Part shown: positions 2,946 to 12,688 of the stretch, piece by piece
Position numbering within the stretch: the first letter of the stretch is position 1
How the letters are laid out: every line of letters starts with the position of its first letter
Source: a virus
Strand: one strand, 5' to 3'
IMG/VR virus record: IMGVR_UViG_3300045988_008873
DNA length: 43,578 nt
The notes under the pieces: generated by a model
Told to the model about the DNA's origin: nothing
Database searches by the model: none
The model's input: the letters and a program-made list of their open reading frames with translations, nothing else
Made by a program: the position numbers and the translations under genes

Positions 2946-3347
2946 TTAGAACGGCAATTCTTCGCCGTCATCTTCGTCCATCATCGTAAACCCGCCGGGG
3001 TTTTCCGGGTTCTGCGGTTCGGTGTTTCGCTTGCCTTCGCCGAAGTAAACACTGTTCGCTACGACCTCAGCAGACCGGCGCTTATTTCCGTCCTTGTCCT
3101 TCCAGTCGCGCAGCTGCAATCTACCGTCCACGACGGCCATACTGCCCTTGAAAAAGTAACCGCTTACAAATTCAGCTGTTCCCGCCCACGCGACGCAGTC
3201 AATGAAATCCGTCTCTTTCTCTCCGCCCTTCGGCGTAAGATCGCGGTCAACGGCCAGCGTGAAGGATGCAACGGACGTTCCGCCCTGCGTCTTTCTCAGT
3301 TCCGGGTCACGCGTGAGCCTGCCCATAATAACAATGTGGTTCAGCAT
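2946..3347 (-). CDS. ssb: Single-stranded DNA-binding protein.
   Basis: OB-fold signature MLNHIVIMGRLTRDPELR...FTLAV and an acidic tail DEDDGEELPF. Confidence 0.9.
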   Translation of the reverse strand: MLNHIVIMGRLTRDPELRKTQGGTSVASFTLAVDRDLTPKGGEKETDFIDCVAWAGTAEFVSGYFFKGSMAVVDGRLQLRDWKDKDGNKRRSAEVVANSVYFGEGKRNTEPQNPENPGGFTMMDEDDGEELPF

Positions 3348-3523
3348 TTGCCGTCCTCCGTATCCGCCGCGTTCTCTTCTGGAGCGCCCAAAATGGCTTT
3401 CAAAACATCGTCGAAACGATACGAAGGCGTGCGCTTGTACGCCTCAAAAAGCATATCGTATCTCGCGCACTTCTTTGCCAATTCCTCATACTTTTCCGTA
3501 CTCAGTTTTACATAGGATTCCAT
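3341..3523 (-). CDS. Hypothetical protein (60 aa).
   Basis: The ORF fills the gap exactly and has a helical, charged composition. Confidence 0.5.
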   Translation of the reverse strand: MESYVKLSTEKYEELAKKCARYDMLFEAYKRTPSYRFDDVLKAILGAPEENAADTEDGKC

Positions 3524-3525
3524 AA

Positions 3526-3825
3526 TTACGTTCCTTTCTTATAAATCAGTTTCGTTTCCTCCCAATCGGGATATTTCATTTTGAGATACCGCCTGATATA
3601 CTCTCTCAGACTTTTGCGCTTCGGCGATTGGTCAAATGCCACATGGCAGCTATCGCATAGCGTCACAATGTTCTCTTCAATTCCAAGCCCGCCCTGCGAG
3701 CGTGGTATGTAATGACACCACGGATTGCCGGGGCGGAGGCAGACGATGCAGCGCCCGCCGTCGCGCTCCCAGACGGCTTTCTTGACCTTCTCAGGTATCT
3801 TTGTTGCCTTCGTTTCCTTTCTCAT
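3526..3825 (-). CDS. HNH endonuclease (99 aa, internal start MRKETK).
   Basis: GGRCIVC...CHYIPRSQGG...NIVTLCDSCH gives the Cys4 and HNH pattern. GGAGG lies upstream of the ATG at 3825. The 241-aa extension is R/S-rich overprinting of the NinB gene. Confidence 0.8.
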   Translation of the reverse strand: MRKETKATKIPEKVKKAVWERDGGRCIVCLRPGNPWCHYIPRSQGGLGIEENIVTLCDSCHVAFDQSPKRKSLREYIRRYLKMKYPDWEETKLIYKKGT

Positions 3826-4360
3826 CCTGCCTCCATTCCAGCGCCATACGCTCGAGTTCTTCCGGCGGGAGCGTCTCGATGCCCTGCTGTTTGCAGTCCT
3901 CAACGACCAGATCAATGAGCCGCGCCATCTGCTTTGTGTCGTAGGTGCTCGAGCCGTAGTAGCAAATGACATTCGTGCAGCCCGGAATTTTTGACGCCAT
4001 AATCTCTGTACACCAGCCGAGACCGTCGTGCTCCCAGCCTTCCCGGAACCGCTTGACCGCCGCGTCCGGAATGCAGATCGTATCGGAGTTATCGCCAACG
4101 TCCGGGATATAGTGCCGGTAGATTTCCTCCGGCGGCGCACCCACCTTGACCGAAAGCTTATTGCAAAGCACCCAGAGATATCGGTTTGCATCCAGACTCC
4201 GCTTCTTGCGGAACTCCTTGATCGTGACCGTGTACTTCTTCTGCGGTTCAATCTCCCCGGCTACCATCTGGGCTTGTCCGGGATGCTCCGGACGGAGCTT
4301 CAGCCAGCTCCCCGAAGCGTCCATGCTCCACGAAGCTTCAACGACATTCAGCTCTCTCAT
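3791..4360 (-). CDS. NinB/Orf-family recombination mediator.
   Basis: KKRSLDANRYLWVLCNKLS matches lambda Orf RSLDQNRKLWACLGDVS. The gene sits directly after the SSAP gene. Confidence 0.7.
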   Translation of the reverse strand: MRELNVVEASWSMDASGSWLKLRPEHPGQAQMVAGEIEPQKKYTVTIKEFRKKRSLDANRYLWVLCNKLSVKVGAPPEEIYRHYIPDVGDNSDTICIPDAAVKRFREGWEHDGLGWCTEIMASKIPGCTNVICYYGSSTYDTKQMARLIDLVVEDCKQQGIETLPPEELERMALEWRQDEKGNEGNKDT

Positions 4361-5688: not shown

Positions 5689-5952
5689 TCATGCCCCCGT
5701 CAGTATCGCGCCGACGAAGAAGCACGCCGCCGCGCCTCCAAGCGTGACCGCCGCCCGGAACAGGCCAAAGCCAAGCATAACCGCCGTACCGCCCAGCAGC
5801 ATACACGCCACGGAGAAGCAGGCTGTTTCCGCGATCTTCATCAGGCTCTTTTGCCTCTTGCGAAGCCGTACGATCTCGTCCCACCTTTCGCCAAGCTCGC
5901 GCTCCCGCGCCGCTCTGTGGTTTAACTCCGTGATAATCTCAACGTCACTCAT
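5689..5952 (-). CDS. Small membrane protein (87 aa from MSDVEII).
   Basis: Two hydrophobic segments (ACFSVACMLLGGTAVMLGFGLF and AAACFFVGAILTGA). GGAGG lies 7 nt before the ATG at 5952, which overlaps the upstream TGA. Confidence 0.6.
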   Translation of the reverse strand: MSDVEIITELNHRAARERELGERWDEIVRLRKRQKSLMKIAETACFSVACMLLGGTAVMLGFGLFRAAVTLGGAAACFFVGAILTGA

Positions 5953-6703
5953 TCTCTGCCTCCACAAATTCGCCGCACATGATATTCTCCGGCTTGGTCT
6001 TCGCGATAATTTTTCTGTATTCGCTTGTGATTCTCACGCGGAGGCCTGCGTAAATGCCAAACTCACAGCCTGCCTCGATGCCTTCGCCTGCCTTGATGCC
6101 ACAGCCTGCCTCGATGCCACAGCCTGCCTCGATGCCTTCGCCTGCCTTGATGCCCCAGCCTGCCTTGATGCCCCAGCCTGCCTCGATGCCTTCGCCTGCC
6201 TTGATGCCACCGCCTGCCTCGATGCCTTCGCCTGCCTCGATGCCACAGCCTGCCTCGATGCCCCAGCCTGCCTTGATGCCACAGCCTGCCTTGATGCCAC
6301 AGCCTGCCTCGATGCCACAGCCTGCCTCGATGCCTTCGCCTGCCTTGATGCCCCAGCCTGCCTCGATGCCTTCGCCTGCCTTGATGCCACAGCCTGCCTC
6401 GATGCCACAGCCTGCCTCGATGCCACAGCCTGCCTCGATGCTTCCGGAAACTTCTAGCCGTCCAGCAAAAATGATTGATTTTTCAGTGATCAGATCGCCG
6501 TCCACCTTCCGGACATCATCCGTCCTGCCGAATACGGAAAGCAGCCATGACCCGTAGCTGAAACCCTTCTCCGCGCAGCAGTCCAGCAAATCCTGATACT
6601 CTACGCCATCCGGATACTTTTCTTCCGGGAATTCTTTCAGAAAATCCCTGTATCCGGCTGCACATGCGCCTTTCTCCCGCAGGAGCTCCTTTGTAATTTT
6701 CAT
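5945..6703 (-). CDS. Hexapeptide-repeat protein: a roughly 95-aa N-terminal domain followed by about 21 xGI(E/K)AG repeats.
   Basis: Strong SD aaggaggatgaaATG. The protein reads ...SGSIEAGCGIEAGCGIEAGCGIKAGEGIEAGWGIKAG... Confidence 0.8.
   Translation of the reverse strand: MKITKELLREKGACAAGYRDFLKEFPEEKYPDGVEYQDLLDCCAEKGFSYGSWLLSVFGRTDDVRKVDGDLITEKSIIFAGRLEVSGSIEAGCGIEAGCGIEAGCGIKAGEGIEAGWGIKAGEGIEAGCGIEAGCGIKAGCGIKAGWGIEAGCGIEAGEGIEAGGGIKAGEGIEAGWGIKAGWGIKAGEGIEAGCGIEAGCGIKAGEGIEAGCEFGIYAGLRVRITSEYRKIIAKTKPENIMCGEFVEAENE
6044..6445. repeat. 18-bp tandem repeat, about 22 units, coding.
   Basis: The plus-strand unit is gcctgcct(c/t)gatgcc(aca/ttc/cca/acc), head to tail with no spacers. Confidence 0.95.
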
Positions 6704-7423
6704 TTCATCCTCCTTAAATAATCTTCCTTGCCGAGTGGGGCTTTTCTGTTTGCTGCATAGCCCTTGCCGTGCGTCCCATACAGAGCCTTTGCCGTGCCAA
6801 ACGTAACTTTGCCTTTGCCTGTCAGAGCAAAGCGTGCGTTACTACGCCGTTGCCAATCCTTGCTTTACTTCGCCTTTGCCTCGCCAGTCCTGGCCGAGCC
6901 GTCCATCGCCCTCGCGTCGCTTAGCCTAGCCTTTCCGTTGCAAACATAGCATCCCATGCCGCCGCGAAACCAGACTGTGCTTTGCCTTTGCGAGGCACAT
7001 CAAATCTCTACAGTGCCGTTGCCACACATTGCATTCAAAGCCGTTGCTCACCTTGCGTTGCACCACCAAGCCTTTGCTTCGCTACGCAGCTCCAAGTCAT
7101 GCCCTCGCTACACACAGCAGTCGAAGCCTTTGCCGTACTTTACGCTGCAACACAACGCCATTGCTACGCTTTGCAACACCACGCCGTTGCCGTTCAATGC
7201 CTGTCTTCGCCGTTCGGAGCCATGCCTCTCCCTCGCGATACTATGCGTTTCATCGCTTATCCGTTGCTCCTCTGCGCCTTTCGCGGCTTCTCCTCTGCGC
7301 TCGTAGCTTATCGATGCCTTCGCTGTGAATCGTGTTGCCCTACTTTGCCGTTGCTGCGCCGTGCCGTGCGGGGCCGTGCAACTCCATTGCCCTTCGCCGC
7401 CGGGCCCATCTATGCCCTCGCAC
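6704..7423 (-). repeat. ORF-free segment carrying a dense same-orientation array of a short degenerate word. On the plus strand the word is GCC-N-TTGC-C/T; on the sense strand it is R-GCAA-N-GGC.
   Basis: I counted TTGC by hand 27 times on the plus strand in 6728..7390. There is no SD-preceded ORF. The region has C>G skew on the plus strand. Confidence 0.7.
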
Positions 7424-8008
7424 TTAATCGAGCACTTCGTAAGTGAACCGTCCCTTTCCGGAGTTCCGCCACTGGCCAATGCCTCTGAGCCGTCCGTAAT
7501 CCAGCCATTCCAGGACGATATCCTTGTGCGCCTTTTCATCCAGCATCGTAATTTCAAACTCGATCGTGCTGCCCGCCGGAATCTCCTCCGAGTTCGCAAG
7601 CGCCACACGCTCGCCCTGCGGGGTCGGTGCTCTCAAAGGCCGCTGGCATTCGCCGATCTCGCCGCTGACCTGAATTGGGATGTGCCGCGGCTCGACGAAA
7701 ATCAAACCGTCGATGATCTTCTTGTAAGCTTTCAAGCTCGAGCTTTTCGTGCTCTTGACTCTTGTCAGCATACCGCATGCGTCCTTGAAGAACCCCTTGA
7801 TCTGGTAGTCATACAGAACCGGGCAGCCGTTCGCGCGGGGAAATACCGTCATGCCCTTGTCTGCCACAACGTCCGCGCCCAAAGCCGCGATCTCGTCTTC
7901 GATGGTAGAAGCGTCCGGCGCTTTCGATGCGATGAAATCCCGCGCCACGTTCTCATTGCTCGGCCACGTGCCAAGCACAGGCTCTAAAAATGTTAATCTG
8001 ACTTTCAT
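7424..8008 (-). CDS. Hypothetical early protein (194 aa from MKVRLTF) with a RAMP-like C-terminal glycine-rich loop.
   Basis: The C-terminus GIGQWRNSGKGRFTYEVLD fits GhGxxxxxGhG. There is an internal PVLYDYQIKGFFKDACG. The SD aaggaaggaaa precedes the second ATG (8008). Confidence 0.7.
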   Translation of the reverse strand: MKVRLTFLEPVLGTWPSNENVARDFIASKAPDASTIEDEIAALGADVVADKGMTVFPRANGCPVLYDYQIKGFFKDACGMLTRVKSTKSSSLKAYKKIIDGLIFVEPRHIPIQVSGEIGECQRPLRAPTPQGERVALANSEEIPAGSTIEFEITMLDEKAHKDIVLEWLDYGRLRGIGQWRNSGKGRFTYEVLD

Positions 8009-8065
8009 TTGCGTTTCCTTCCTTTTCATTTGTTAAATATTTTTGCAAGCACCCAAATCGGATAC

Positions 8066-8309: not shown

Positions 8310-8516
8310 TTATTCCTCCTTTTCTCTGCTGCGCCGCTCTACGACGGCATCAAATGCGGCGTTCAGTCGCGCCTTTGCGTTCGGCGGCTTCCTTGCCCCG
8401 TTCAAGATCATGGACAAATAGCCTTTTGTCAGTCCAAGCTCTGCGGCAAGATCGTCGTATGAAACACGCGCATTGTGCATTTTCCCAATCAGTACGCCTG
8501 TCCATTTTTCTGGCAT
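8310..8516 (-). CDS. Cro-like XRE-family HTH protein (68 aa).
   Basis: SYDDLAAELGLTKGYLSMILNG is a canonical XRE HTH. It is the first gene, divergent from the cI-like gene. Confidence 0.7.
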   Translation of the reverse strand: MPEKWTGVLIGKMHNARVSYDDLAAELGLTKGYLSMILNGARKPPNAKARLNAAFDAVVERRSREKEE

Positions 8517-8579: not shown

Positions 8580-8881
8580 AGCCCTTTTAGGTAAATTCGG
8601 GAGGTGGTCGTCATGACCAAACTTTTGAACTTGCCAGTTCCAGACCAAAGAAACGGCGTAATGCGTTAGGGCAAGGGGCAGCGCCAGAACTGCCAAAGTG
8701 AGCGGCGCGTCATAGAAGCGCAAGTTCGTTTTGTGTCAGGGTGGCATTGCCGAGCCGGTGGAAAGAACTCCATCAATTCGGACGGATGCAAGGTAACGCA
8801 GACGGCCATCCTGTGCAGCGCGTTCTGGTAAACAACTCTGGGGGAAACCGCTCGTGAACGAACCACGGGCGGCTTTTCTTT
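8580..8881 (+). ncRNA. Candidate transcript of about 300 nt, bounded by P1 and an intrinsic terminator. It contains an SD-preceded 18-codon ORF (8613..8669).
   Basis: Promoter and terminator are both read directly. GGGAGGTGG at 8599..8607 is followed by ATG at 8613 (MTKLLNLPVPDQRNGVMR). There is no long ORF on this strand. Confidence 0.4.
8848..8881 (+). terminator. Intrinsic terminator.
   Basis: Stem ccgctcgtg / cacgggcgg (9 bp including one G-U pair), loop aacgaac, followed by cttttcttt. Confidence 0.6.
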
Positions 8882-8998: not shown

Positions 8999-9077
8999 TT
9001 GCAAACTTTTTCAACCACAAGGCAATAATACATCAAACATTCTCAACTGTCAACCGCTATTTGCAAACTAATTCAAC
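8999..9077 (+). promoter_or_regulatory. Two 17-bp direct repeats TTGCAAACT(tt/aa)TTCAAC in the leader of the cI-like gene; candidate operators.
   Basis: Copies at 8999..9015 and 9061..9077 share 15 of 17 positions and lie 62 bp apart. Confidence 0.45.
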
Positions 9078-11124: not shown

Positions 11125-11706
11125 ATGTCGGCAATTCAGGAGCTCGCCCCATATATTTCTGCATATCAGGGGAACATCAAGCGGGCGAAAGAAGATCAGC
11201 ATTACACCATCGACAGACTTGTTGATGAATCCGGCGTTTCCAGATCGGCTGTTTCGAAGCTCTGTGCAGGTACGCAGCAAGACCCGAAACTATATAATTC
11301 TGCCGCGCTGTGCCGCGTTCTCGGGCTGTCGCTGGATGAGCTGTTCGGGCTAAAACAGCCTACCGACAGCCCAAGCGAACTACAGGAACGGAACCACAGG
11401 CTCGAACTCGAGAATGTCAGAGCGACCGCCGCAAACGAAATGCAGCGGGCGCAGATCAAAGCCACACACGCTATCTGCTACCTGTTGGTCTTTTTCTGTG
11501 CCATGCTTGCGTTTTCGCTGATCGTGTACCTTGTTATCGACTCGCAGATTACAGACGCTGGCATCATCCGGGACGGAAGGCTATCTGTAATGGCGTGGAT
11601 ATTTATCGCCCTGATTGTCGCGTCCATACTGGCCGTAGGCTTCACCATTCTTCGTATCGTCAAAAAGGAGAACCGCAATGAAAAAACTGAAAGTCCCAGA
11701 GGCTGA
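11125..11706 (+). CDS. Membrane-anchored XRE-family HTH protein (193 aa).
   Basis: YTIDRLVDESGVSRSAVSKLCAG is the HTH. It is followed by a coiled segment and then two hydrophobic helices (ICYLLVFFCAMLAFSLIVYLVI and VMAWIFIALIVASILAVGFTIL). The SD is ggagg. Confidence 0.7.
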   Translation: MSAIQELAPYISAYQGNIKRAKEDQHYTIDRLVDESGVSRSAVSKLCAGTQQDPKLYNSAALCRVLGLSLDELFGLKQPTDSPSELQERNHRLELENVRATAANEMQRAQIKATHAICYLLVFFCAMLAFSLIVYLVIDSQITDAGIIRDGRLSVMAWIFIALIVASILAVGFTILRIVKKENRNEKTESPRG

Positions 11707-12688
11707 AAAACTGCCGTCCGGCTCTTACCGCTGCCGCGTGATGGTAAACGGGAAAGCGAAGTCGTTCACAGCAAGCACAAAGCGAGAAGCAGAGCAAGAA
11801 GCTTTAGAATACAAAATCGGTATCCTTTCTGCCGAGGAGGCAAAGCCGGAAATAACAATCCGCAAAGCAATTGACGAATACCTGGAATTCAAGAGCGGCA
11901 CTCTTTCCCCAGCGTCTATTCGCGGGCACAGAATTAAGCAGCGGTGTTATCTTCAACCCATCATGGACGTTCCTTTGTCTAAGCTCTCTGTGAATGCTAT
12001 ACAGCAGGCAATCAACGCAGAAAAATGCAGCCCCAAGACCATCCGCGAAACATGGGCGCTGATACGTCCGGCTCTTAAACGATATGGCGTATCTTACGAA
12101 GTAGCACTTCCCGCCATCCAATCGGACGAGCACGCTTTTTTGTCTGCGGAAGAAATTCCTGTGTTTTTGAAAGCGGCGGAAGGGAGCAAGTATGAAATCG
12201 CGTTTCTTCTTGCGCTGCACTCTCTGCGTGTGTCAGAAATCCTCGGTTTGCGTTGGGAGAACGTTGATCTGAAAAAGCAGTCCATAACGGTTCGAGGGGC
12301 TACCCTGTTCGACGAAAACAACAAACTGGTAAACAAGGTGTCTAACAAAAACCGTTCTTCGCGGCGGACTATTCCGATCATGATACCGAGGCTGTCGCAG
12401 CTCCTTTCAGAAGCAGAAAAATCGAGTGATTTTGTCGTCGTTGCAAATCCGAACAGCATTCGCGCCGCGTCAAATAAAATATGCAAGGGCGCAAACCTGC
12501 CAGAAGTCGGGACACACGGTCTGCGGCATTCCTTCTGCTCCCTTGCGTATAAGCTAGGTATATCGGAAAAAGTCACGATGCAGCTAGGCGGATGGTCGGA
12601 TTACGGAACTATGCGGAAGATATACACGCACGTTGCGCAGGCAGACATATCCGAGTCTGTGCAGCAAATGAAAACGTTCTTTTCTTGA
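11678..12688 (+). CDS. int: Tyrosine integrase.
   Basis: LRVSEILGLRWENVD contains the Arg box. HGLRHSFCSLAY...GGWSDYGTMRKIYTHV gives the H-x-x-R and catalytic Tyr region. Confidence 0.9.
   Translation: MKKLKVPEAEKLPSGSYRCRVMVNGKAKSFTASTKREAEQEALEYKIGILSAEEAKPEITIRKAIDEYLEFKSGTLSPASIRGHRIKQRCYLQPIMDVPLSKLSVNAIQQAINAEKCSPKTIRETWALIRPALKRYGVSYEVALPAIQSDEHAFLSAEEIPVFLKAAEGSKYEIAFLLALHSLRVSEILGLRWENVDLKKQSITVRGATLFDENNKLVNKVSNKNRSSRRTIPIMIPRLSQLLSEAEKSSDFVVVANPNSIRAASNKICKGANLPEVGTHGLRHSFCSLAYKLGISEKVTMQLGGWSDYGTMRKIYTHVAQADISESVQQMKTFFS

What the first reader, a model, noticed from the sequence alone, without database searches (positions are those of the whole stretch)
6704..7423. 720-bp ORF-free, strand-asymmetric block carrying about 27 same-orientation copies of a short GCC-N-TTGC word in the middle of the early operon
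Elsewhere this genome is tightly packed, with overlapping stops and starts, yet this interval has no credible gene. It runs from the stop of the 194-aa early gene (7424) to the strong SD/ATG of the repeat protein (6703).

The only ORFs here are three mutually overlapping plus-strand frames and one minus-strand frame. None has an SD.

Counting by hand, TTGC occurs 27 times on the plus strand. The positions are 6728, 6750, 6764, 6789, 6809, 6815, 6850, 6860, 6876, 6938, 6982, 6988, 7019, 7029, 7044, 7053, 7058, 7074, 7130, 7161, 7171, 7187, 7264, 7335, 7345, 7351 and 7387. Most copies sit inside GCC[T/G/A]TTGC[C/T] (sense strand [G/A]GCAA[A/C/T]GGC). Only about 5 copies occur in the opposite orientation, and I would expect only a handful by chance.

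The phases modulo 3 are flat (8/8/11), which argues against a decayed coding repeat. Spacings are irregular (5 to 77 bp), with many near 10, 16 and 31 bp.

A second word, GCCCTCGC, recurs at 6908, 7101 and 7414, with a variant at 7228.

The plus strand is C-rich (23 C against 10 G in 7021..7080), so the early transcript would be G-rich and poorly self-complementary. No inverted copies are present, so this is neither a hairpin array nor a CRISPR array.

The candidate roles are all inference:
- An iteron-type replication origin, since it sits next to the recombination and replication module, although no AT-rich unwinding element is obvious.
- A protein-titration or centromere-like array.
- A cluster of orientation-dependent Chi-like sites.
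- An early RNA bound by the adjacent RAMP-like protein.
Basis: partly seen in the sequence, partly recalled or inferred. Interest (0 to 1): 0.75.

Follow-up and report, generated by a model that had tools for sequence, protein, structure and literature searches.

The report
Pentamer-lattice array beside phage Cas7-like gene
The gene-free 720 bases are built from about 140 five-base units that each start with G, and this kind of block always sits next to a phage gene for a CRISPR-type (Cas7/Csm3-like) RNA-binding protein, which points to an undescribed phage RNA-protein module.

Summary
The 27 TTGC / 13 GCCNTTGC copies far exceed dinucleotide shuffles. They lie on a coherent ~5.1-nt lattice that fills 6704-7423 and occurs nowhere else in the window. 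On the sense (minus) strand the block reads as ~130 pentamers plus 14 hexamers, with G first in 86%.

The upstream 194-aa gene (7424-8008) folds as a Cas7/Csm3-type RAMP: all top-50 PDB matches are CRISPR RAMPs, almost all Cas7-family backbone subunits.

In 91 of 92 related loci, the only strongly 5-nt-periodic segment abuts this gene on the same strand, downstream in most and upstream in four. A DNA-only search for (GCNNN)10GC found more arrays, and 54 of 64 carry a second, very divergent Csm3-like family (phrog_4652; Felix O1-like phages, mycobacteriophage LittleE). Among close relatives, lattice Gs vary about 4-fold less than positions 3-5.

Best reading (inferred, ~0.55): the block is the RNA partner of the RAMP protein and sets its register, one subunit per pentamer. 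The biological role is unknown. Origin, Chi-cluster, pseudogene and CRISPR-array readings fit poorly. I found no Rfam family or paper describing this.

The parts
6704..7423 (-). Pentanucleotide-lattice array. On the sense strand it parses as about 130 pentamers plus 14 hexamers of the form G-N-N-N-N (G at position 1 in 86%, C at position 2 in 48%). The grammar is [GCAAN GGNNNN (GNNNN)k]. There is no ORF.
   Evidence: Selection on lattice positions. The same kind of block abuts the homologous gene in 91 of 92 loci.
7424..8008 (-). 194-aa Cas7/Csm3-like RAMP protein gene (stop codon 7424-7426). The ORF also has an upstream ATG at 8029, but homologues support 8008. The C-terminal G-rich loop is GIGQWRNSGKGRF.
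   Evidence: AF2 model: pLDDT 76.8, pTM 0.77. Foldseek against PDB: all top-50 matches are CRISPR RAMPs, almost all Cas7-family subunits (Csm3, type VII Cas7, Cmr4, Csf2); a few are Cmr1 or Cas6. Weak profile hits. BFVD homologue at 88% identity is named 'Cas system-associated RAMP superfamily protein'. No Pfam or PHROG match. The family has 1730 clusters at 50% identity.
6761..7390 (-). 16 copies of the punctuation motif GCAANGG (plus-strand CCNTTGC starting at 6761, 6786, 6812, 6847, 6873, 6935, 6985, 7016, 7041, 7071, 7127, 7158, 7184, 7261, 7348, 7384). Each copy marks the place where one hexamer interrupts the pentamers. That gives unit lengths of 5k+1.
   Evidence: Pooled over the family, the commonest unit lengths are 26, 31, 36 and 41 nt, and 396 of 641 spacings are 1 mod 5.
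6908..7421 (-). On the sense strand it is GCGAG|GGC, that is, two consecutive lattice pentamers. It is part of the same array, not a separate element.
6701..6716 (-). Shine-Dalgarno (AGGAGG) and ATG of the next gene (252-aa hexapeptide-repeat protein). This is the 3' boundary of the array, and there is no terminator between the two.
9025..9053 (-). Candidate early promoter (TTGACA-17-TATTAT, 11 of 12). It would drive the leftward operon of HTH gene, 80-aa gene, RAMP gene, array and recombination genes. That it transcribes the array is inferred.
   Evidence: No promoter-like or minus-strand terminator-like site lies inside 6704-8008.

Best explanation
The 720-nt block is the nucleic-acid partner of the Cas7/Csm3-like RAMP protein encoded directly upstream. 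It most likely acts as RNA, as an untranslated part of the early leftward transcript.

Its lattice of G (GC) every five nucleotides would set the register for cooperative, sequence-selective polymerisation of the protein, one subunit per pentamer (about 140 on this block). The conserved GCAAN-GG sites, each adding one extra base, would act as punctuation or nucleation points.

The product would be a long, CRISPR-independent ribonucleoprotein filament made early in infection.

**Shown**
- The lattice.
- The protein fold.
- The two-way genomic coupling of block and gene.
- The conserved strand polarity.
- Purifying selection on lattice positions.

**Inferred**
- That the partner is RNA rather than DNA.
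- Direct binding.
- The stoichiometry of 5 nt per subunit.
- What the particle does. Because the gene sits third in the immediate-early operon, just after the cro-like HTH genes, my guess is an anti-defence or nucleic-acid-shielding role.
For: **The lattice**
- It is strong, coherent over the whole block, and unique in the window.

**The neighbouring protein**
- Its model matches only CRISPR RAMPs, chiefly Cas7-family backbone subunits, whose known job is to polymerise along a single-stranded RNA.
- Weak independent profile hits land on the C-terminal G-rich loop.

**Forward association**
- In 91 of 92 loci encoding homologues (54-100% aa identity; Clostridia, Coriobacteriia, Synergistaceae, Sedimentisphaerales) the only strongly periodic segment in about 12 kb abuts the gene.
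- It lies downstream in most loci, and directly upstream as a 5' leader in L085, L086, L087 and L090. The G-lattice is always on the gene's strand.
- No other gene is conserved next to it.

**Reverse association**
- A protein-blind scan for (GCNNN)10GC in viral contigs gave 64 arrays of at least 200 nt.
- 54 of them carry a RAMP-like gene of a different family (phrog_4652), and 53 of those 54 are on the array's G-rich strand.
- A phrog_4652 member (essentially wV8 gp95; 99% identical) has a pLDDT-94 model. Its top-50 PDB matches are again all CRISPR RAMPs, chiefly Csm3 and other Cas7-family subunits.

**Hints of RNA**
- In wV8 the pentamer runs lie between a promoter-like site (11 of 12) and gp95.
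- In mycobacteriophage LittleE each run is followed by what looks by eye like a tRNA T-arm.

**Selection**
- Among 26 close relatives, variable sites per pentamer position 1-5 are 6.5, 14.5, 23.4, 22.6 and 25.2% (Fisher p = 1e-5 for position 1 against positions 3-5).
- Lattice G is variable at 4 of 109 sites, against 23 of 83 for other Gs.
- Whole units are still gained and lost, for example one clean 169-nt indel at 99.9% identity.
Against: - There is no expression, binding or structural data, so RNA against DNA is not settled.
- All known Cas7-family filaments bind 6 nt per subunit, not 5 (established knowledge from Cascade, Csm and Cmr structures). The proposed register has no precedent.
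- Foldseek TM-scores are only about 0.5. No curated Cas7 profile is passed.
- The sequence link between the two phage RAMP families is modest: hhalign probability 56% (E 1e-4) and 28%.
- RNA-folding z-scores across arrays range from +1.4 to -4.9. There is no consistent signature of an unstructured scaffold.
- Some phages carry extra arrays away from the gene.
- The block has no long complementarity to anything else in the window, so it cannot be a guide.
Confidence: 0.55

Rival explanations
1. DNA-level element. The array works as double- or single-stranded DNA, for example a replication origin, an R-loop initiation zone or a protein-loading or titration site, recognised by the RAMP-like protein or by a replication or recombination protein.
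For: - The block sits in the early replication and recombination module (Rad52-like, NinB, primosomal-like genes).
- In Gordonia phage Trine and in wV8 the homologous gene lies next to DNA polymerase, primase or ligase.
- A G-rich transcript over a C-rich template favours R-loops (general knowledge).
Against: - There are no iterons of 17-22 bp, no helical (10.5-bp) phasing and no AT-rich unwinding element. The block is 57% GC.
- Strand polarity relative to the gene is kept in 92 of 92 and 53 of 54 loci, even when the array moves from downstream to upstream.
- In LittleE the module is an oppositely oriented insert between tail genes. An origin would not be expected there.
- The length varies from 300 to 1500 nt, with free gain and loss of units.
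- Cas7-family proteins are RNA binders.
Confidence: 0.2
2. Purely cis-regulatory spacer. The untranslated stretch, with or without the protein, only tunes translation or stability of the flanking genes. One form would be autoregulation, in which the protein coats its own leader or trailer and occludes the next ribosome-binding site.
For: - The array runs right up to the SD of the next gene here.
- It runs up to the SD of the RAMP gene itself in L085 and L090.
- This resembles cooperative coating of an unstructured leader, as in T4 gp32 (general knowledge).
Against: - 300-1500 nt, or 60-300 binding units, is far more than occlusion of one ribosome-binding site needs.
- Extra arrays occur elsewhere in the operon.
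- The regulated neighbour is not conserved.
Confidence: 0.12
3. Functionless by-product. A pentanucleotide microsatellite born by slippage has decayed and merely hitch-hikes beside the gene.
For: - Unit indels are frequent among near-identical phages.
- TRF sees almost no repeat, as expected for an old, decayed array.
Against: - Lattice positions are about 4-fold less variable than positions 3-5.
- The lattice is kept in loci whose proteins are only 54-60% identical and in a second protein family with a different consensus (GGCNN, GGTNN).
- The GCAANGG punctuation is conserved across phyla.
Confidence: 0.05
4. Decayed or recoded protein-coding repeat, or a cluster of Chi-like recombination hotspots.
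For: - The neighbouring gene does contain a coding tandem repeat (18 nt x 21).
- The motif is orientation-biased.
Against: - A 5-nt period cannot encode protein. The mod-3 phases are flat.
- All six frames are closed, with mixed stop codons.
- No related locus carries an ORF that is conserved across relatives over the interval.
- The word is not enriched outside the block (7 copies in 42.9 kb), unlike Chi.
Confidence: 0.03

Closest known systems
Cas7-family backbone of class 1 CRISPR effectors (Csm3 of type III-A, Cas7 of type VII, Cmr4)
   Same: The predicted fold is the same: an RRM-like core, a long beta-hairpin 'thumb' and a C-terminal G-rich loop. These proteins polymerise along single-stranded RNA in a fixed nucleotide register.
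   Different: - This is a solo gene in a phage early operon.
- There is no CRISPR array, and none of the nearby window genes tested matched a Cas family; no neighbouring gene is conserved across related loci.
- The partner sequence has a 5-nt (5.1) lattice, not the 6-nt register.
- The partner is low-complexity and carries no spacer-like information.
- Curated Cas7 profiles are not passed.
Type IV-B Csf complex (PMC7937560; bioRxiv 10.1101/2020.07.31.231399)
   Same: A Cas7-like filament assembled on non-CRISPR RNA, with no nuclease or adaptation genes.
   Different: - The IV-B complex also has Cas11 and Csf1, is plasmid-borne, and binds heterogeneous cellular RNA.
- Here there is one protein and a dedicated, adjacent, periodic template.
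RNA anti-CRISPRs / solitary repeat units (Racr; PMC10651486)
   Same: Phage-encoded non-coding RNA that engages Cas6/Cas7-type proteins and is expressed early.
   Different: - Racrs mimic a host CRISPR repeat (one structured unit) and use host Cas proteins.
- This array has no CRISPR-like repeat or hairpin, and the phage brings its own RAMP.
- The module also occurs in phages of hosts not known to have type III systems, such as Felix O1-like phages (the statement about the hosts is my own knowledge).
Register-setting assembly sequences and multi-site protein-sponge RNAs: the TMV origin of assembly (G every third base, 3 nt per coat subunit), TRAP-binding (G/U)AG repeats at 5-6-nt spacing, and CsrB/RsmZ
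   Same: This is how I think it works: a short base signal repeated at the footprint of one protein subunit, many times, on one strand. This rests on established knowledge of those systems. It is an analogy and was not tested.
   Different: - The proteins are unrelated.
- Those elements have 11-22 sites, while this one has about 140.
- No binding data exist here.

Membership tests
Cas7/Csm3 RAMP superfamily (protein 7424-8008) | RRM-like core with thumb hairpin; fold similarity to solved Cas7 subunits | tested here: met
   All top-50 Foldseek PDB matches are CRISPR RAMPs, almost all Cas7-family subunits. Best hit is 9ash_F (Csm3), E 1.6e-5, TM 0.48-0.58.
Cas7/Csm3 RAMP superfamily (protein 7424-8008) | C-terminal glycine-rich loop (GhGxxxxxGxG type) | tested here: met
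   - GIGQWRNSGKGRF is present. G176, W180, R181 and G186 are at least 93% conserved in 96 family members.
- The weak profile hits fall on this loop.
Cas7/Csm3 RAMP superfamily (protein 7424-8008) | Passes a curated sequence model (Pfam, NCBIfam or PADLOC Cas7) | tested here: not met
   - Pfam: no hit.
- PADLOC Cas7_IIId: E 0.011, 13 bits.
- NCBIfam Csm4: 11 bits against a cut-off of 55.
Cas7/Csm3 RAMP superfamily (protein 7424-8008) | Binds RNA in a 6-nt register as a filament | not testable with these tools
   Only the partner's 5.1-nt lattice is seen.
CRISPR-Cas locus / CRISPR array | Direct repeats of 23-50 nt separated by unique spacers, with other cas genes nearby | tested here: not met
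   - TRF and the repeat finder give only short degenerate matches.
- No neighbouring gene is conserved across related loci, and none of the nearby window genes tested matched a Cas family.
Iteron-type replication origin | Several 17-22-bp iterons in helical phase next to an AT-rich unwinding element | tested here: not met
   - The period is 5.1 nt, with no peak at 10.5.
- The longest repeat families are 15-37 nt at 60-88% identity.
- The block is 57% GC.
Chi-like hotspot set | Short oriented word over-represented and dispersed along the genome | tested here: not met
   13 of the 20 GCCNTTGC copies lie in this 720-nt block, with 7 in the remaining 42.9 kb.
Any Rfam RNA family | Match at or near the gathering score | tested here: not met
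   - Nothing in the block, even at E <= 10.
- Nothing in seven related or analogous loci.
Phage RAMP plus pentamer-array module (class proposed here) | A Csm3-like gene of about 190-250 aa directly flanked, on the same strand, by a segment of at least 200 nt with a G-led ~5-nt period | tested here: met
   - Window.
- 91 of 92 homologous loci.
- 54 of 64 arrays found by pattern alone.

The most novel reading that the evidence does not exclude
Phages of many bacterial phyla carry a previously undescribed two-part system. One part is a solo Cas7/Csm3-like protein. The other is a dedicated non-coding array written in a pentanucleotide code, (GNNNN)n, (GCNNN)n, (GGCNN)n or (GGTNN)n.

The protein would polymerise on the array at 5 nt per subunit. 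That is a register unknown among Cas7 filaments. The result would be a CRISPR-independent ribonucleoprotein made early in infection.

Such a system could be an exapted CRISPR backbone or a relative of its ancestor. It may act in counter-defence. Alternatively, because the RNA is perfectly complementary to its own C-rich template, it may act as a self-targeting R-loop former.
Probability: 0.4. Interest if true: 0.92.

Novelty: new variant of a known kind. Interest (0 to 1): 0.82.

Why it matters
**Scale.**
- The protein family is large. It has at least 7980 clusters at 90% identity and 1730 at 50% identity.
- It has no Pfam or PHROG entry. Its partner array is invisible to ORF callers, TRF, CRISPR finders and Rfam.

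**What it would add.** If the coupling reflects a real ribonucleoprotein, three things follow.
- It would show that Cas7-type backbones exist and function outside CRISPR in viruses.
- It would give the first example of a sequence-encoded register for such a filament.
- It would explain conspicuous "empty" stretches in many gut-phage early operons.

**Tractability.** The sister family occurs in cultured phages: Felix O1-like coliphages and Salmonella phages, Gordonia phage Trine, and Mycobacterium phage LittleE. The idea can therefore be tested at the bench straight away.

Tried and rejected
- **Recoded or frameshifted gene.** All six frames are closed with mixed stop codons. A 5-nt period is incompatible with coding.
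- **Known RNA family.** Rfam at gathering score and at E <= 10 gave nothing in the block. It gave nothing in seven other loci, and ARAGORN found no tRNAs in the five loci scanned.
- **DNA similarity to cultured phages.** blastn found no match.
- **Tandem-repeat and inverted-repeat finders.** TRF found only a 34-nt, score-31 hit. There are no inverted repeats. The lattice is too degenerate for these tools.
- **Unstructured RNA scaffold.** The window block folds worse than all 20 shuffles (z = +1.8). Across 11 other arrays, however, z runs from +1.0 to -4.9. I dropped this as evidence.
- **Guide-like complementarity.** No 14-mer of the block recurs elsewhere in the window on either strand. The excess of 12- and 13-mers is one 13-mer shared with the neighbour's 18-nt coding repeat.
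- **A conserved third gene.** None was found.
- **Internal promoter or terminator.** Neither was found on the sense strand. The promoter scan of an upstream-array locus was uninformative.
- **Catalytic residues.** No broadly conserved Csm3-like Asp is evident. E39, D100 and E141 are conserved, along with many Arg, Lys and Gly. Nuclease activity cannot be inferred.
- **Literature.** Nine searches turned up no description. Topics covered: Cas7-like or Csm3-like proteins in phages, solo RAMPs, pentanucleotide periodicity, and repeats in Felix O1 and wV8. The Felix O1 genome paper lists other direct repeats only. The library lacks most subscription journals, so prior work cannot be excluded.
Full report
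**1. The observation**

The interval 6704-7423 lies between the stop codon of a 194-aa gene (7424-8008, minus strand) and the SD/ATG of a 252-aa gene (5945-6703, minus strand).

Against 2000 dinucleotide-preserving shuffles:
- TTGC: 27 against 11.5 +/- 2.6.
- GCCNTTGC: 13 against 0.44.
- GCCCTCGC: 3 against 0.08.

No shuffle reached any of these values. No reading frame is open, and the stops are of mixed type, so stop-codon reassignment does not rescue a gene. There are no inverted repeats, and TRF sees almost nothing. The G/C skew is the same as in the flanking genes, so the 'strand asymmetry' is not a property of the block itself.

**2.

- Identity autocorrelation of the sense strand peaks at 5, 10 and 15 nt, then at 21, 26, 31, 36 and 41 nt. 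The G indicator has spectral power 10.2 at period 5.11.
- In sliding 200-nt windows the power reaches 11.4 inside the block. The highest value in any window wholly outside the block and its flanks is 3.4, and the window median is 1.4.
- A simple dynamic-programming parse gives about 130 pentamers, 14 hexamers and one tetramer. G is first in 86% and C second in 48%.
The 27 positions lie on a 5.10-nt lattice, with resultant length 0.68 against a maximum of 0.63 in 300 random sets.
- The 16 GCAANGG copies mark the places where one extra base is inserted. This produces units of 5k+1 nt. Pooled over the family, spacings of 26, 31, 36 and 41 dominate, and 396 of 641 are 1 mod 5.
- The 'second word' GCCCTCGC is just two adjacent lattice pentamers, GCGAG|GGC.

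**3. The neighbouring protein**

The 194-aa protein has no Pfam or PHROG match. It belongs to a very large family: at least 7980 clusters at 90% identity and 1730 at 50%.

- An AlphaFold2 model (pLDDT 76.8, pTM 0.77) matches only CRISPR RAMPs among its top 50 PDB hits, almost all of them Cas7-family backbone subunits. These include Csm3 of several type III-A complexes, type VII Cas7, Cmr4 and Csf2; a few lower-ranked hits are Cmr1 and Cas6. E-values go down to 1.6e-5, and TM is about 0.5-0.58.
- Weak sequence-profile hits point the same way and fall on the C-terminal G-rich loop, GIGQWRNSGKGRF. They are type VII Cas7 (E 0.076), PADLOC Cas7_IIId (E 0.011) and Csm4 (E 0.17).
- A BFVD entry 88% identical is already named 'Cas system-associated RAMP superfamily protein'.

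No curated model is passed.

**4. Coupling of gene and array, forward direction**

I fetched 92 loci encoding homologues: 80 viral contigs and 12 MAG contigs (Clostridia, Coriobacteriales, Atopobiaceae, Synergistaceae, Sedimentisphaerales), at 54-100% identity.

- In 91 of them the only strongly 5-nt-periodic segment in about 12 kb directly abuts the gene. The exception has only 156 nt of upstream sequence.
- The segment is downstream in most loci. In L085, L086, L087 and L090 it lies immediately upstream and runs up to the gene's own ribosome-binding site.
- The G-lattice is always on the gene's strand.
- The length ranges from about 300 to 1500 nt.
- L092 is almost ideal: G1 in 96%, C2 in 88%, with 'GCAAA G GCNNN' punctuation.
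- No other gene is conserved beside the pair.
- Three loci have an additional array elsewhere in the same operon, without a second RAMP gene.

**5. Coupling, reverse direction, and a wider class**

Of these, 64 hold a periodic array of at least 200 nt, mostly (GGCNN)n in high-GC phages.

- My family HMM found nothing in these loci.
- However, the ORF ending at the 5' edge of many arrays ends in G[ILV]G[DE][FW]RP..G.[FY]G[RK]F.V.
- All six such proteins tested fall in phrog_4652, a family of unknown function. None has a Pfam hit.
- An HMM of this family finds a gene in 54 of the 64 array loci, and 53 of the 54 are on the array's G-rich strand. Six of the ten misses have under 700 nt of flank.
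- phrog_4652 members occur in cultured phages: Felix O1-like viruses, Gordonia phage Trine, Mycobacterium phage LittleE and others.
- A phrog_4652 member (essentially wV8 gp95; 99% identical) gives a pLDDT-94 model. Its top 50 PDB matches are again all CRISPR RAMPs, chiefly Csm3 and other Cas7-family subunits, and its order of secondary-structure elements matches that of the window protein.
- Profile-profile similarity between the two families is modest: probability 56% (E 1e-4) and 28%.
- In wV8, short (GGTNN)10-12 runs, each followed by a conserved hairpin, flank the gp95-gp94 pair. The upstream set lies after a promoter-like site (11 of 12).
- In LittleE, three (GGCNN) runs are each followed by what looks by eye like a tRNA T-arm. 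The module is an oppositely oriented insert between tail genes.

Pentamer arrays are thus partnered with Csm3-like genes in two very divergent families, with different pentamer consensus sequences.

**6. Is the lattice under selection?**

The array changes quickly by gain and loss of units among phages whose RAMP proteins are 94-100% identical. One example is a single clean 169-nt indel at 99.9% identity.

Within ungapped blocks of at least 85% identity from 26 relatives, the fraction of variable sites at pentamer positions 1-5 is 6.5, 14.5, 23.4, 22.6 and 25.2% (chi-square p = 5e-4; position 1 against positions 3-5, Fisher p = 1e-5). Lattice Gs vary at 4 of 109 sites, against 23 of 83 for Gs at positions 3-5. 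The lattice is maintained. It is not a fading microsatellite.

**7. Context**

The window is a temperate siphovirus genome: integrase 11678-12688 (+), tape-measure protein, portal and large terminase. The leftward early operon runs as follows:
- a candidate promoter at 9053-9025;
- an HTH gene (8310-8516) and an 80-aa gene;
- the RAMP gene, then the array;
- a hexapeptide-repeat protein and several small ORFs;
- a Rad52-like annealase, NinB/Orf, a primosomal-like protein and a methyltransferase.

No promoter-like site and no sense-strand terminator-like site lies within the RAMP gene or the array. Co-transcription is therefore the default expectation, though it is inferred.

**8. Interpretation**

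Shown:
- a selected, strand-specific G-lattice of period about 5 nt;
- a Cas7/Csm3-fold protein next to it;
- a two-way, phylogenetically deep coupling of the two.

Inferred:
- The array acts as RNA. The arguments are the constant polarity relative to the gene despite rearrangement, its position as a leader or trailer, the promoter-like and T-arm-like flanks in the sister family, and the known RNA-binding role of Cas7 proteins.
- The lattice sets the register for cooperative assembly, one subunit per pentamer. This follows the same logic as the G-every-third-base origin of assembly of TMV, or the spaced triplets bound by TRAP. Both are analogies from established knowledge.
- The GCAAN-GG sites act as punctuation.

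The 5-nt register would be new for a Cas7-type protein, since all solved complexes use 6 nt. The role of the particle is open. Its position just after the cro-like genes suggests counter-defence.

I put 0.55 on the RNA-partner reading, 0.2 on a DNA-level element, 0.12 on a purely cis-regulatory spacer, and under 0.1 on a by-product, pseudogene or Chi cluster.

**9. Comparison with known systems, and novelty**

The closest systems are the Cas7 backbones of class 1 effectors, the type IV-B Csf complex that assembles on non-CRISPR RNA (PMC7937560), and RNA anti-CRISPRs (PMC10651486). This module differs from all of them in four ways:
- it has a single solo RAMP gene;
- it has a dedicated, adjacent, low-complexity template;
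- it has a pentanucleotide rather than hexanucleotide period;
- it has no CRISPR-like repeats.

Rfam has no such family, and nine literature searches found no description. I rate it a new variant of a known kind (a CRISPR-related ribonucleoprotein backbone). There is a substantial chance that the array-plus-protein module deserves to be called a new class.

**10. Caveats**

- Everything functional is inference from sequence.
- Fold matches have TM about 0.5.
- The homology between the two phage families rests mainly on shared fold, shared C-terminal motif and shared context.
- The substitution test depends on alignments within a repetitive region, although only long, ungapped, high-identity blocks were used.

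Noticed in passing
window 8655-8878 (+): A full-length FuFi-1 RNA (Rfam RF02986, 101.6 bits, E 5e-21). It lies in the divergent control region between the leftward early operon and the rightward genes. A terminator-like hairpin at 8848-8872 forms its 3' end.
   Followed up: no
window 5945-6703 (-), repeat at 6064-6441: The gene just after the array encodes 21 tandem 18-nt units, that is, G-I-[EK]-A-G-x hexapeptides. It gives a weak LpxD-type left-handed beta-helix hit. Copy number differs among close relatives by 18- and 36-nt indels. One 13-mer of the array (7311) matches six of these units.
   Followed up: partly
L213 (Escherichia phage wV8, NC_012749) 2150-2480 and 3560-3830: (GGTNN)10-12 runs flank gp95/gp94. 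Each run is followed by a conserved hairpin (GGGTAGTTAGTCTCAGCTACATTAAAATGAGACTTACC). A repeat annotated only as 'DR_4' recurs in both gaps. A promoter-like site (11 of 12) at 2094-2121 precedes the first set.
   Followed up: partly
L215 (Mycobacterium phage LittleE, NC_042322) 3633-3998: Three (GGCNN) runs lie downstream of gp34/gp33. Each is followed by what looks by eye like a tRNA T-arm (GGTTCGATTCGCC..., GGTTCGAGTCCATCGG...). ARAGORN and Rfam call nothing there. The two genes are inverted relative to the surrounding tail genes.
   Followed up: partly
L082 ~3200-3450, L083 ~2070-2300, L089 11351-12100: Second pentamer arrays lie in the same operon, on the same strand, but not next to any RAMP gene. 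This suggests the protein can act in trans.
   Followed up: partly
window-family arrays against phrog_4652 arrays: The net period is 5.10-5.18 in all 11 window-family arrays tested, and 4.9-5.0 (median 4.98) in the 64 arrays found by pattern. In the window family the extra 0.1-0.2 comes from one hexamer per GCAANGG unit. Why that family needs it is unexplained.
   Followed up: partly
window 7424-8029 (-): The ORF of the RAMP gene extends to an ATG at 8029 (201 aa, MKRKETQ...). Homologues align from the ATG at 8008.
   Followed up: partly
L100 11082-11133: This is a false positive of the pattern scan: an (AGAGC)n microsatellite that appears to lie inside a coding region (judged from the flanking sequence, not checked). 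Exact-pattern hits therefore need the periodicity and length filter.
   Followed up: yes
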